Assembly (NCBI GenBank): GCA_029565735.1
Contig: JAKQNO010000138.1
Span: 18,195-82,194, forward strand
Reading direction: 5' to 3'
Length of the DNA: 64,000 nucleotides
DNA from: a bacterium
GTDB taxonomy: Bacteria; Oederibacteriota; PGYV01
The translations under genes were made by a program, and so were the position numbers. The notes under the pieces were generated by a model. That model had not been told where the DNA came from. It made no database searches and saw nothing but the letters and a program-made list of their open reading frames with translations. This document shows positions 3,651 through 33,936 of the stretch, one piece after another; position 1 is the first letter of the stretch; each line of letters starts with the position of its first letter.

Positions 3651-4198
3651 TCGCCCACATCCACTGCCTTTAATGTCACCCTTCGCTTTATTTCAAGATT
3701 TTTAAATCCGGCGTCGGTTTCAAGCCCTATGCCTTTTAATACCGTGCCGTCCCTTGTAACCGTCACTTCTTCTTCGGTATACATTTTTTTGCGCCTGTCA
3801 TCCCAAAAAAGCCTGTTGGTCCGCACAACCGCGCCGTCGCCGGAAATCGCCTTTACATTGCCGGTAATTTCCATAAAATTTGTGTCAGTATCTATTACGG
3901 CGCGGTCGCCGTAAAGCACGGTTTTGCTGTTATTAGCGTCCAGGTAATTCATCACAAAACCCTGCGCGTAAGCTTTCTTTTTTAATTCAAAAACCTGCGC
4001 GCCTTTGGCGTTGACTTCCCACTTCACTTCGCCTTTCTGCGCGGATTTAAGGGTAAAATTTTCCATTACAAAATTAGGGACAGATTCCACGCTGTCGCCC
4101 ACGGGAAGGCTTGGTTTTATCTTTTTTTCCCTGCCGCAGCCGGCAAATAACACCGCCGCCGTAAGCGCCAGTAATAAAATTTTTGTTATCCTGTTCAC
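3647..4198 (-). CDS. lptC: LptC-like LPS transport protein (lipoprotein-type N-terminus)
   Basis: Start reassigned to a GTG that overlaps the lpxL TGA stop (GTGA coupling). Product begins MNRITKILLLALTAAVLFAGC (lipobox-like) and has an OstA-like C-terminal region. Position is upstream of lptA. Confidence 0.5.
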   Translation of the reverse strand: MNRITKILLLALTAAVLFAGCGREKKIKPSLPVGDSVESVPNFVMENFTLKSAQKGEVKWEVNAKGAQVFELKKKAYAQGFVMNYLDANNSKTVLYGDRAVIDTDTNFMEITGNVKAISGDGAVVRTNRLFWDDRRKKMYTEEEVTVTRDGTVLKGIGLETDAGFKNLEIKRRVTLKAVDVGE

Positions 4199-32904: not shown

Positions 32905-33564
32905 TTAAATTTTAAAGCCTTTGCTTATTAACAGCGTTTCTGAATTGCGTATCACCTGCAGAATCTGGCCTTTATTTAATCCGGCTTCCGCCAGCACGCT
33001 TTCCCTTTTTTTCGCGTCCGCCAAATCAGACGGCGCGTGGCCGTCCGTATCAAAAACAAGTTTCGCCCCTGCTTTTAAAGCCGCCTGAGCCACGTGTTTA
33101 TTTGTAATATTATGCCCGTTTCTGGCTGTTATTTCAAGGTAAACATTATTCTTTGCCGCAAGAGCAGCGTCTTCATCCGTAATATTGCCGGGATGCGCAA
33201 GAATGTCCACTTTTGCATCTATGGCTGCCCTGTTTGAACCGGGTTCAACCGGCTCGGTTACAGTTTCGCCGTGAAATACAACTATCTTTGCGCCAAGAGA
33301 CCTTGCCTTTTTTACAAGGCCTGAAACTAAAACAGGCGGAATATGTGTCAGCTCCACTCCGGGAAGGCATATTATGTCTTTATATGCTTTGCCCATATCG
33401 CGGCAAACCTTTGTCAGGTTTTTAACAACAAATTCAATATTGGAAATATCGGCGTGATCTGCAATGCCTATGGCGCGGTACCCCATTTTTCTGGCGCGCT
33501 GAATAAGTTCTGACGGCAGCAAGACTCCGTCAGAAAAAAATGTGTGCGTGTGAAGGTCTATCAT
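32905..33564 (-). CDS. PHP-family metal-dependent phosphoesterase
   Basis: MIDLHTHTFFSDG motif and further conserved His/Asp ligands. Confidence 0.7.
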   Translation of the reverse strand: MIDLHTHTFFSDGVLLPSELIQRARKMGYRAIGIADHADISNIEFVVKNLTKVCRDMGKAYKDIICLPGVELTHIPPVLVSGLVKKARSLGAKIVVFHGETVTEPVEPGSNRAAIDAKVDILAHPGNITDEDAALAAKNNVYLEITARNGHNITNKHVAQAALKAGAKLVFDTDGHAPSDLADAKKRESVLAEAGLNKGQILQVIRNSETLLISKGFKI

Positions 33565-33594
33565 ATGTACACCCCTTATTGATTGATTTAATCA

Positions 33595-33638
33595 GAAACC
33601 TGCATTATATTTTTTAATGGTGGGCCCGAGACGAATCG
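33595..33638. repeat. 44-bp perfect direct repeat, copy 1 (duplicate of the tRNA-Arg 3' end plus 3' flank)
   Basis: gaaacctgcattatattttttaatggtgggcccgagacgaatcg is identical to 33767..33810. It contains the last 21 nt of the tRNA including CCA. Confidence 0.7.
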
Positions 33639-33766
33639 GTCACATAGCAAAACGCTTCCTGCGTTTTGCACCGCGACCTACCCTCCGGGCACTATAGCCC
33701 GCGCTCGCTTCCGCTAATTCGCTTTTCCTCGCTATTCGCTCGGCGCTCGCTTGTTTCGATTCGTCC

Positions 33767-33810
33767 GAAACCTGCATTATATTTTTTAATGGTGGGCCCG
33801 AGACGAATCG
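33767..33810. repeat. 44-bp perfect direct repeat, copy 2 (genuine tRNA-Arg 3' end plus flank)
   Basis: Identical to 33595..33638 and overlaps the tRNA-Arg gene 3' end. Confidence 0.7.
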
Positions 33811-33865
33811 AACGTCCGGCCAAAAGTTTAGGAAACTTCTGCTCTATCCACTGAGCTACGGGCCC
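33790..33865 (-). tRNA. tRNA-Arg (anticodon CCU), CCA encoded
   Basis: GGGCCCGUAGCUCAGUGGAUAGAGCAGAAGUUUCCUAAACUUUUGGCCGGACGUUCGAUUCGUCUCGGGCCCACCA folds as a canonical cloverleaf: 7-bp acceptor stem, anticodon loop UUCCUAA and T-loop UUCGAUU. Confidence 0.85.
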
Positions 33866-33936
33866 ACAATAAATCAAAAAATACCTGTATATTATATAGA
33901 AAAATGGTTTTAATGCAAGAAATTTGTTGCCGTTTT

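What the first reader, a model, noticed from the sequence alone, without database searches (positions are those of the whole stretch)
33595..33865. tRNA-Arg(CCU) 3' end duplicated as a perfect 44-bp direct repeat bracketing a 128-bp GC-rich insert bounded by inverted repeats
The final 21 nt of the tRNA (including CCA) plus 23 nt of 3' flank recur exactly 172 bp downstream. The intervening 128 bp are GC-rich in an AT-rich genome. They begin and end with inverted copies of the T-arm segment (GACGAATCG ... CGATTCGTC). They also contain a CAAAACGC/GCGTTTTG hairpin and CGCTCGCTT repeats. This is the architecture of attL-element-attR after tRNA-targeted site-specific integration. Here the cargo is reduced to a miniature element or excision/deletion scar, or possibly a small structured RNA. 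No integrase is nearby.
Basis: seen in the sequence. Interest (0 to 1): 0.55.

Follow-up and report, generated by a model that had tools for sequence, protein, structure and literature searches.

The report
Conserved non-coding insert behind tRNA-Arg
In an uncultured Goldbacteria genome, the last 44 bases of the tRNA-Arg(CCU) gene region are duplicated around a 128-base GC-rich non-coding insert that looks like an integration footprint, yet sister species show it is conserved, lost or decaying, so it is probably a functional structured element rather than a dead scar.

Summary
A perfect 44-bp direct repeat (33595-33638 = 33767-33810; the last 21 nt of tRNA-Arg(CCU) plus 23 nt of trailer) brackets a 128-bp insert with 58% GC against 43% for the window. 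At least 13 independent assemblies reproduce it.

The host is a Candidatus Goldiibacteriota chromosome. None of 48 window ORFs is a recombinase.

Sister species show every state of the locus:
- an exact empty site (Y)
- a filled site with a different native flank (X)
- a half-deleted copy decaying from GC to AT (Z)

The insert differs by 5.5% between W and X, whereas neutral sites differ by 47%. X shows no change of its own in 60 nt since splitting from Z, which shows 14. This indicates purifying selection.

The insert starts with a 12-mer complementary to the tRNA's T-loop and 3' T-stem strand. More distant Goldbacteria carry this motif retuned to their own T-stem, but without any duplicated tRNA end.

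Best reading: the architecture arose by Campbell-type recombination in the tRNA 3' end, and the insert is now a maintained, probably tRNA-co-transcribed, structured module of unknown role. No integrase, free form or second copy was found. This is a new variant of a known kind, of moderate interest.

The parts
33790..33865 (-). tRNA-Arg(CCU) gene, CCA encoded. T-arm is GGACG-TTCGATT-CGTCT.
   Evidence: ARAGORN; Rfam RF00005 at 66.2 bits. The sequence is identical in species X, Y and Z.
33767..33810 (-). Direct repeat copy 1: the last 21 nt of the tRNA (33790-33810) plus the 23-nt trailer 'A' (33767-33789, TTAAAAAATATAATGCAGGTTTC on the tRNA strand).
   Evidence: Exact 44/44 match to 33595-33638. 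Trailer A is kept in species X with 3 differences in 23, although X's native flank is different.
33755..33766 (-). Module B: the anti-T-arm 12-mer GGACGAATCGAA. It is complementary to the T-loop plus 3' T-stem strand of the tRNA and of its duplicated fragment.
   Evidence: 11/12 complementarity, reached by 4 of 2000 trailer shuffles. Homologous motifs GCATGAATCGAA (L110), GCATGAATAGAA (L108/L109) and GCATGAAGCGAA (L116) match the different T-stem of those tRNAs.
33701..33754 (-). Module C: GCGA-rich segment. AGCGA occurs five times on the tRNA strand, and GCGCTCGCTT twice on the + strand at 33701-33710 and 33743-33752. It contains a small hairpin UAGC-GGAA-GCGA.
   Evidence: Repeats found. B plus C is 67/69 identical between W and X. 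It aligns to the L108/L110 trailer with score 51-55, against 28 +/- 5 for shuffles.
33679..33700 (-). Module D: hairpin GGGC-UAUAGU-GCCC (33687-33700) plus linker. The 19 nt at 33679-33697 are deleted in strain L004 and in species X.
   Evidence: Fold; deletion seen. Z keeps GGGTAGGTCG, so the long form is older.
33639..33678 (-). Module E: long hairpin. It has a 9-bp perfect upper stem GCAAAACGC/GCGUUUUGC, loop AGGAA, a 5x5 internal loop and a lower stem GGUCG/UGACC.
   Evidence: Inverted repeat I1; folds. The upper stem and loop are invariant in W, L004 and X, and Z keeps the stem with one G-C to A-U change and one G-U (not significant with 4 sequences).
33618..33638 (-). Module F: displaced copy of the last 21 nt of the tRNA (CGATTCGTCTCGGGCCCACCA). 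It starts at the third base of the T-loop, and its first 10 nt pair with module B.
   Evidence: 21/21 match in W and X; 14/21 in Z (1 of 1000 shuffles); absent in Y, L013, L108 and L116. The B:F helix is predicted in every fold.
33595..33617 (-). A': second copy of the 23-nt trailer, completing direct repeat copy 2. It is orthologous to the native trailer of the empty-site species.
   Evidence: alignment to the Y trailer. W2 strains differ here at 33600/33601, and their roughly 7% divergence from W starts at 33601.
33565..33594 (-). Native leader with the Shine-Dalgarno sequence (AAGGGG) of the PHP gene. No promoter-like or terminator-like site is predicted on this strand between the tRNA and the gene.
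32905..33564 (-). Context: a PHP-domain phosphoesterase gene (NCBIfam PRK06361). It lies immediately downstream of tRNA-Arg(CCU) in every Goldbacteria lineage sampled where the tRNA is in view (L107 excepted).

Best explanation
The locus is a tRNA-Arg(CCU) gene followed by a 109-128-nt GC-rich non-coding module, made of sub-modules B, C, D and E. A displaced copy of the tRNA's last 21 nt (F) closes the module.

Origin (inferred). A single Campbell-type recombination took place inside the T-loop-to-3'-end segment of the tRNA gene. It joined in a small DNA that carried its own tRNA 3' end, the 23-nt trailer and the module. This is the geometry produced by tyrosine-integrase integration. No integrase is left, and recombination by homology on the 21-44 bp is not excluded.

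Present state. The evidence for constraint is shown; the mechanism is inferred. The module is not a decaying scar but is kept by selection in at least two species. It is most likely transcribed from the tRNA promoter as part of the tRNA-to-PHP transcript. It would then fold into a domain whose closing helix is the anti-T-arm motif (B) paired with the duplicated T-arm strand (F), enclosing hairpins C, D and E. That would leave the real tRNA free to fold.

In relatives without F, the same motif can only pair with the tRNA's own T-arm. The role of the module is unknown; candidates include a small RNA, a processing or stability element, and a leader of the PHP operon. It is dispensable: one clade lacks it cleanly, and another has a half-deleted, decaying copy.
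For: Architecture:
- Exact 44-bp repeat starting in the T-loop, with a 128-bp insert.
- Exact empty site in Y, with an identical tRNA and the PHP start codon 42 nt later.
- In X the trailer next to the intact tRNA is W-like, while the flank after F is Y-like native sequence.

Reality: at least 13 independent assemblies.

Constraint:
- Four-fold site divergence is 0.47 for W-X and 0.17 for X-Z.
- The module differs at only 6 of 109 positions between W and X: B-C 2/69, E 4/40 (all four in the internal loop), F 0/21.
- X and Z share all four non-W states, so their copies descend from one ancestor.
- Since that split X has 0 changes of its own in 60 nt, where about 5 are expected under neutrality. 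Z has 14, of which 11 are GC to AT, and its GC content has fallen from 62% to 45%.

Anti-T-arm motif:
- Significant in W, X, L108/L110 and L116 (at most 4 of 2000 shuffles each).
- Its T-stem part changes from GGACG to GCATG together with the local tRNA.
- B-C of W aligns to the L108/L110 trailer at about 5 sd above shuffles.

Transcription context: no promoter-like or terminator-like site on the minus strand between the tRNA and PHP.

Structure: the fold z-score is about -4 with B:F, and -3.1 for C-D-E alone.

No coding signal: the 45-codon ORF has no Shine-Dalgarno sequence, and its frame is not kept in L004, X or L109.
Against: - No transcript data are available, so expression and processing are inferred only.
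- No compensatory covariation appears among W, L004 and X. The two double changes in hairpin E come from the decaying Z copy and are not significant (59 of 500 shuffles).
- Both strands fold equally well, so a DNA-level role, such as protein-binding sites or recombination arms, fits the same conservation.
- The element is absent from Y and decaying in Z without visible compensation.
- Hairpin D has been deleted twice.
- Strain L004 carries 5 substitutions in the module on a genome background that is 0.1-0.4% diverged. This needs import of a diverged allele.
- If the insertion is old, the perfect identity of the 23-nt trailer copies in W needs a recent gene conversion.
- Only five to six lineages could be sampled.
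- There is no Rfam match.
Confidence: 0.45

Rival explanations
1. Active miniature integrative element. The 150-170-bp unit (tRNA 3' end + trailer + module) would be essentially an attP site without cargo. An integrase encoded elsewhere would excise and re-integrate it at the T-loop of tRNA-Arg(CCU). In this reading B is an inverted core-type half-site and the AGCGA repeats of C are arm-type sites. Its conservation would reflect selection for mobility and turnover by horizontal transfer.
For: - Integration geometry and an empty site.
- The unit is close in size to the roughly 250-bp attP described for tDNA islands (PMC4383910).
- The repeated AGCGA / GCGCTCGCTT motifs lie 58-110 nt from the putative crossover.
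- The L004 allele is more than 10 times more diverged than its genome background.
- A recombination breakpoint lies inside repeat copy 2 between W and W2.
- The motif B-C occurs next to the same tRNA in distant lineages.
Against: - No integrase in 64 kb.
- No second copy in the window or in any fetched locus.
- No hit in viral contigs, phages or plasmids for the insert, its ends, the B-C consensus or the 21-nt tRNA end.
- The X and Z copies share derived states at the same locus, which indicates vertical descent rather than turnover.
- 58% GC is unusual for attP arms, which are typically AT-rich (own knowledge).
- A DNA circle of 150-170 bp is very stiff (own knowledge).
Confidence: 0.2
2. Inert fossil. 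This would be the attL-remnant-attR scar of an ordinary island or prophage whose cargo and integrase were deleted, now drifting neutrally.
For: - It has the tDNA plus displaced 3' fragment signature with no integrase.
- It is dispensable in Y and is visibly decaying in Z.
- Integration scars at tRNA genes are common (PMC9897764).
Against: - W and X keep the same boundaries and 94.5% identity while four-fold sites are 47% diverged.
- X has had no change in 60 nt since the X-Z split, against 14 in Z.
- GC content stays at 58-62% in a 43% GC genome whose unconstrained copy fell to 45%.
- The anti-T-arm motif is conserved and retuned in distant lineages.
Confidence: 0.12
3. No mobile DNA at all. 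The module B-E would be the ancestral native trailer of tRNA-Arg(CCU) in Goldbacteria, or the leader of the PHP operon. The 44-bp tRNA-end copy would then have been added downstream by local duplication or gene conversion (template switching or break repair). The 'empty' site in Y would be a secondary deletion between the two tRNA-end copies.
For: - B (and C) sit directly behind the tRNA in L108/L110 and L116, which have no duplicated tRNA end.
- Synteny of the tRNA with PHP is conserved.
- Deletion between 21-44-bp repeats would recreate exactly the Y sequence.
Against: - L013, the closest outgroup, lacks B, C and F.
- A dispersed 44-bp duplication placed exactly 128 bp away, with one end in the T-loop, has no simple replication-slippage mechanism.
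- The repeat does not extend beyond 44 bp.
- In X the trailer copy next to the tRNA is W-like rather than X-native, which is easier to explain if the unit came in as a block.
Confidence: 0.18
4. Small protein gene: the 45-codon ORF on the tRNA strand (33777 to 33640) that spans the insert would be translated.
For: An uninterrupted ATG-to-TGA frame covers the whole insert in W. ORFs also exist in X and L004 (read from the sequences), and a 35-aa ORF was called over the L109 trailer.
Against: - There is no Shine-Dalgarno sequence.
- The 19-nt indel shifts the frame in L004 and X.
- The W-X and W-L004 substitutions are almost all non-synonymous.
- The L109 ORF reads module B in another frame.
- GC-rich DNA is naturally poor in stop codons.
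Confidence: 0.02
5. Assembly artefact at a repeat boundary.
For: One Logan contig (L007) breaks inside the 44-bp repeat. This is expected for k=31 unitigs.
Against: Identical structure in at least 13 contigs from different projects and assemblers, plus variant alleles in L004 and X with the same boundaries.
Confidence: 0.01

Closest known systems
Genomic islands and prophages integrated in tRNA genes by tyrosine integrases (the 'Islander' signature). An example is the defective prophage KplE1/CPS-53 in E. coli argW.
   Same: - An intact tRNA gene regenerated by incoming DNA, with a displaced 3' end fragment downstream in the same orientation.
- Identity begins in the T-loop region, a recognised crossover subsite.
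- An empty site exists in relatives.
- The argW gene is also used as an attB by KplE1, which is bordered by a 16-nt duplicated core (PMC2951348; that argW encodes tRNA-Arg(CCU) is own knowledge). The signature is described in PMC4383910.
   Different: - Only 128 bp lie between the repeats, whereas Islander's length filter is 2-200 kb and KplE1 is 10.2 kb.
- There is no integrase or any gene, and no free form was found.
- The content is GC-rich, structured and under purifying selection rather than decaying.
tRNA gene fragments left by integration events (attR-type remnants that are often mis-annotated as tRNAs)
   Same: A partial, non-functional 3' tRNA fragment sits next to its parent gene. 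This is attributed to partial duplication during integration (PMC9897764).
   Different: The reported cases flank roughly 9-23 kb of foreign DNA. Here the fragment is kept perfectly (21/21) in two species whose neutral sites differ by 47%. It also pairs with a dedicated complementary motif.
Small RNAs made from tRNA transcripts, such as the 3' external transcribed spacer of the glyW-cysT-leuZ operon (3'ETS-leuZ) in E. coli (own knowledge)
   Same: Non-coding sequence directly downstream of a tRNA, with no terminator in between. It could be released by tRNA-processing nucleases.
   Different: - Expression is not shown here.
- This module is much longer.
- It carries a duplicated tRNA 3' end and an anti-T-arm motif, neither of which is a feature of known 3'ETS RNAs.
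- There is no sequence or Rfam similarity.
Miniature non-autonomous mobile elements (MITEs, Correia or REP-type repeats)
   Same: Small, non-coding, hairpin-rich and present or absent between relatives.
   Different: - Single copy in 64 kb.
- 'Target duplication' of 44 bp rather than 2-10 bp.
- The apparent terminal inverted repeat is half tRNA.
- No transposase is present.

Membership tests
tDNA-integrated island / prophage (tyrosine-integrase integration signature) | An intact tRNA gene plus a cognate terminal 3' fragment, downstream and in the same orientation | tested here: met
   tRNA at 33790-33865. The fragment at 33618-33638 matches the last 21 nt including CCA, on the same strand and downstream.
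tDNA-integrated island / prophage (tyrosine-integrase integration signature) | The identity block starts at a recognised crossover subsite (anticodon loop, T-loop or T/acceptor junction) | tested here: met
   Identity starts at the third base of the T-loop (TT|CGATT) in W, L004 and X. The subsites are described in PMC4383910.
tDNA-integrated island / prophage (tyrosine-integrase integration signature) | An integrase gene between the tRNA and its fragment (or adjacent) | tested here: not met
   There are 128 bp with no gene between the repeats. No recombinase was found among 48 ORFs of the 64-kb window.
tDNA-integrated island / prophage (tyrosine-integrase integration signature) | Multigene cargo (2-200 kb in Islander) | tested here: not met
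   The insert is 128 bp (109 bp in L004 and X).
tDNA-integrated island / prophage (tyrosine-integrase integration signature) | An unoccupied attB in related genomes | tested here: met
   L011, L012, L102 and L103 have the identical tRNA followed directly by the native flank.
tDNA-integrated island / prophage (tyrosine-integrase integration signature) | A free or other integrated form carrying the matching attP | tested here: inconclusive
   There were 0 hits in viral contigs, phages and plasmids. The metagenome scan found only the orthologous locus of species X.
MITE-type miniature transposable element | Terminal inverted repeats belonging to the element, a short target duplication, and many copies | tested here: not met
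   One inverted arm lies in the duplicated tRNA end. The duplication is 44 bp. The element is single-copy in the window and in all loci.
Any described RNA family (Rfam 15) | A covariance-model match | tested here: not met
   Only the tRNA itself matches. Nothing in the insert or in the trailers of X, Z, L013, L110 or L116 reaches E <= 1.
tRNA-linked small RNA (3' external transcribed spacer type) | Co-transcription with the tRNA and release of a stable RNA | not testable with these tools
   The only indirect evidence is the absence of promoter-like or terminator-like sites between the tRNA and PHP on the minus strand.
tRNA-linked small RNA (3' external transcribed spacer type) | Sequence or structure conservation beyond the neutral rate | tested here: met
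   6 of 109 positions differ between W and X, against 47% at four-fold sites. X has 0 changes of its own in 60 nt, against 14 in Z. Covariation itself is not demonstrated.

The most novel reading that the evidence does not exclude
Goldbacteria may carry a previously undescribed tRNA-Arg(CCU)-linked RNA element. Its defining feature would be a trailer motif that base-pairs with the T-loop and 3' T-stem strand of the tRNA and co-evolves with it. In the W/X lineage a duplicated tRNA 3' end has been recruited as a dedicated partner or decoy for this motif. That creates a closed, selectively maintained structured RNA. It may also act as a switch between a mis-folded and a correctly folded rare-codon tRNA precursor, or a control on the downstream PHP operon.
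Probability: 0.2. Interest if true: 0.7.

Novelty: new variant of a known kind. Interest (0 to 1): 0.48.

Why it matters
Partial tRNA duplications are routinely read as dead footprints of islands. Here the footprint encloses only about 110-130 nt. That sequence is conserved far beyond the neutral rate in an uncultured phylum and carries a motif that tracks the tRNA's own T-stem.

If the module is an RNA, it would be a new class of tRNA-linked non-coding element, and an example of a displaced tRNA fragment being put to use.

If it is a cargo-less attP cassette, it would be a minimal integrase-dependent hitch-hiker.

Either way, 'tDNA + fragment' signatures below island-finder size cut-offs can hide functional sequence. 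The locus also offers a natural series for experiments: filled, empty and decaying.

Tried and rejected
1. **Longer repeat.** I tested whether the repeat extends beyond 44 bp as a decayed second copy of module B. The 30 nt after each copy align no better than shuffles (p about 0.9), although repeat finder had reported a 60-nt, 88% family.
2. **Native trailer homologous to B.** The Y-type native trailer is not significantly similar to module B (p about 0.2).
3. **Anti-acceptor extension.** I tested whether B extends through an anti-acceptor stretch (GGUUUC and similar) into a tRNA-like helix ending in ACCA, which would resemble an RNase P guide-sequence substrate. The energy gain is no better than with random 10-mers, so this was dropped.
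4. **'X is closer to W than to its sister Z, so horizontal transfer.'** Rejected. Z shares all four X-specific states, and its extra differences are GC-to-AT decay.
5. **Shared 19-nt deletion as a transferred allele.** The same deletion occurs in L004 and X, but the surrounding states are W-type in L004 and X-type in X. Recurrent loss of hairpin D is therefore more likely.
7. **Viral, phage and plasmid searches.** All were empty.
8. **Rfam.** It matched nothing but the tRNA.
9. **Small-ORF reading.** Rejected on frame shifts.
10. **Strand test by folding.** Both strands give z of about -3.1, so the test is uninformative.
11. **Other mechanisms considered on anatomy alone.** CRISPR-like off-target repeat duplication, retron, group I intron and invertible-promoter readings were all dropped. 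There are no cas or reverse-transcriptase genes, no Rfam match, and every assembly shows a single orientation.
Full report
**What is in the window**

- tRNA-Arg(CCT) lies on the minus strand at 33790-33865 (ARAGORN; Rfam 66 bits).
- Read on the tRNA strand, the locus runs in this order: TerC gene (34887-33937), tRNA, a 23-nt trailer 'A' (33789-33767), a 128-nt insert (33766-33639), a copy of the last 21 nt of the tRNA 'F' (33638-33618), a second copy of the trailer (33617-33595), 30 nt with the ribosome-binding site, and then a PHP-domain gene (33564-32905).
- The two 44-bp copies are identical.
- The insert has 57.8% GC, against 42.9% for the window.
- I divided the insert into four modules:
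  - B (33766-33755): GGACGAATCGAA, complementary to the T-loop plus the 3' T-stem strand.
  - C (33754-33701): rich in AGCGA, with two GCGCTCGCTT repeats.
  - D (33700-33679): a small hairpin.
  - E (33678-33639): a long hairpin with a 9-bp perfect stem and an AGGAA loop.
The left 'inverted repeat' arm lies in the duplicated tRNA end, not in the insert.

**It is real, and the host is a chromosome of an uncultured phylum**

- The flanking PHP protein is found with identical sequence on 21 contigs. Every contig long enough to show the region has the same structure (L001-L006, L008-L010), as do L106 and L112-L115.
- Source names identify Candidatus Goldiibacteriota from anaerobic digesters.
- The window is core chromosome: ribosomal proteins, SecY, RpoA, LPS transport, Tad pilus and AcrB.
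- None of 48 ORFs scanned is an integrase, transposase, resolvase or reverse transcriptase.

**Relatives show every state of the site**

A neighbour-joining tree of TerC+PHP nucleotides gives ((X,Z),(Y2,(Y,Y))),W with L013 as outgroup.

- **Y and Y2** (L011, L012, L102, L103) have the identical tRNA followed by TAAAAAATACAGGCC..., with the PHP start 42 nt later. This is an exact empty site.
- **X** (L101) is filled. It reads tRNA, a W-like trailer (ATAAAAATATAATGCCGGTTTC), a 109-nt module lacking 19 nt of D, a perfect F, and then the Y-like native flank. The trailer next to the intact tRNA therefore belongs to the inserted block. This is what Campbell-type insertion at the tRNA 3' end predicts.
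- **Z** (L104, L105), the sister of X, has lost A-B-C. It keeps a degraded E, and F matches at 14/21.
- **Strain L004 of W** carries another allele, with the same 19-nt deletion plus five substitutions.

**The insert is constrained, not drifting**

- Four-fold degenerate sites in TerC+PHP differ by 47% between W and X and by 17% between X and Z.
- The module differs at 6 of 109 positions between W and X. That is 2 of 69 in B-C, 4 of 40 in E (all four in the internal loop) and 0 of 21 in F.
- Z shares all four non-W states with X, so the X and Z copies descend from one ancestral copy at this locus.
- Since that split X has accumulated no change in the 60 comparable nt, where about 5 are expected under neutrality.
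- Z has accumulated 14 changes over the same stretch. Eleven of them are GC to AT, and its GC content has dropped from 62% to 45%, which is the genome level.
- Even if the unit had been transferred between lineages just before the X-Z split, at least 12 changes would be expected in B-C, and 2 are seen.
- An inert scar is therefore unlikely.
- My earlier impression of phylogenetic incongruence (X nearer to W than to Z) is explained by the decay of Z. I withdrew it.

**An older, co-varying motif**

- More distant Goldbacteria keep the tRNA-Arg(CCT)-to-PHP arrangement but have a different tRNA sequence, with T-stem GCATG/CATGC.
- Their trailers have no duplicated tRNA end.
- They do contain GCATGAATCGAA (L110), GCATGAATAGAA (L108/L109) or GCATGAAGCGAA (L116), located 12-57 nt after the CCA.
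- This is module B with its five T-stem positions changed to match the local tRNA. Each match is reached by at most 3 of 2000 shuffles.
- In L108/L110 the following sequence, AAC-GAGCGGGCGCCGGGC, is homologous to the start of C. The local alignment scores 51-55, against 28 +/- 5 for shuffles.
- L013, the closest outgroup, lacks B, C and F.
- Pairing between this motif and the T-arm strand therefore seems to matter, whether the partner is the tRNA itself or, in W and X, the duplicated fragment F.
- B-C is both the oldest and the best conserved part of the insert.

**Recombination at the locus**

- W2 strains differ from W by 5.5% in the PHP protein. They are nevertheless identical to W over 1.24 kb, from TerC through the insert down to position 33602. 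They then diverge by about 7% from 33601 onward. This places a breakpoint inside repeat copy 2.
- L004 differs from W at 1 position in the 1.1 kb upstream and at 0 positions in the 1.68 kb downstream. Within the insert it has five substitutions plus the indel. This indicates a short imported patch.

**What it is not**

- No Rfam family matches the insert or the trailers of relatives.
- blastn against phages and plasmids gave no match.
- Exact scans of viral contigs for the hairpin, the repeat, the insert end, the B-C consensus and the tRNA ends found nothing.
- There is no other copy in the window or in the fetched loci.
- The metagenome scan returned only species X.
- The genome-collection scan returned chance hairpins.
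- A 45-codon ORF (33777-33640) spans the insert. It has no ribosome-binding site, and the indel and the relatives break its frame.
- No promoter-like or terminator-like site is predicted on the minus strand between the tRNA and PHP. The module is therefore probably transcribed with the tRNA.
- Predicted folds close the module with a 10-bp B:F helix around hairpins C, D and E (z about -4). Both strands of C-D-E fold equally well, and covariation is not demonstrated.

**Interpretation**

- The architecture fits the signature of integration into a tRNA gene as used by island finders (PMC4383910; fragments reviewed in PMC9897764; argW is also used by KplE1, PMC2951348).
- It fails the membership tests for an island, having no integrase and no cargo.
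- I therefore separate origin from present state.
- **Origin (about 0.65):** one recombination in the T-loop-to-3'-end segment inserted a small block carrying its own tRNA end and trailer. This was either integrase-mediated or homology-driven.
- **Present state (about 0.45 as stated):** a selectively maintained, structured, probably co-transcribed non-coding module. It is closed by the anti-T-arm motif and the displaced tRNA strand. It is dispensable in some lineages and its role is unknown.
- **Rivals:**
  - an active cargo-less attP-like mini-element mobilised in trans (0.2)
  - a native trailer with a locally duplicated tRNA end and secondary deletion in Y (0.18)
  - an inert scar (0.12)
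  - a small protein (0.02)
  - an artefact (0.01)

**Limits**

- There are no expression data.
- With so few sequences, the DNA-level and RNA-level readings of the conservation cannot be separated.

Noticed in passing
L013 3910-3980: In a relative whose PHP protein is 76% identical, a 49-nt GC-rich piece (3921-3969) is bracketed by perfect 11-bp direct repeats AAGACAAAGAC, just upstream of the PHP gene. Its start (GCGCGGGCTAAAGCGCC) resembles module D of the window, but the overall alignment is not significant.
   Followed up: partly
L107 1-80 (GCA_964453675.1, contig CAYVPG010000036.1): A truncated 5' part of a tRNA-Arg gene (GCCCCCTTAGCTCAGTGGATA) lies in inverted orientation about 220 nt upstream of the PHP gene. 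It is fused to a GC-rich GAAGCGTCAGCGAAGGCGG stretch, and the contig ends there. ARAGORN finds no intact tRNA. This could be a rearrangement or an assembly break at the same hot spot.
   Followed up: partly
window 33601/33602 (compared with L112-L115 and L006): There is a sharp mosaic boundary between W and W2 strains: 0 mismatches over 1.24 kb upstream, then about 7% divergence downstream. The boundary falls inside the second copy of the 44-bp repeat. L006 has the W-type PHP protein but the W2-type flank.
   Followed up: partly
window 32905-33564 (-): The PHP-domain protein belongs to NCBIfam PRK06361 (E = 5e-83). It has weak, sub-threshold similarity to RNase P protein component 3 (Rpp30) and RNase RNM, and several homologues carry a precomputed PF01876 hit. 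The gene follows tRNA-Arg(CCT) directly in every Goldbacteria lineage sampled where the tRNA is in view (L107 excepted), which hints at an RNA-related role.
   Followed up: partly
window 33640-33777 (-): A 45-codon ORF (MQVSDESKQASAERIARKSELAEASAGYSARRVGRGAKRRKRFAM) spans the whole insert. It has no Shine-Dalgarno sequence, and its frame is broken by the 19-nt indel in L004 and X. It is judged non-coding.
   Followed up: yes
window 33679-33697; L004; L101: The same 19-nt deletion removing hairpin D occurs in a W strain (L004) and in species X, on otherwise different alleles. This suggests recurrent, structure-prone deletion rather than a shared allele.
   Followed up: partly
window 33866-33936 (-): The region upstream of the tRNA (TTGCAT-16 nt-TATAAT) is about 95% conserved between W, X and Y and is the likely promoter. 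The consensus scan missed it because its -35 hexamer matches only 3 of 6 positions.
   Followed up: no
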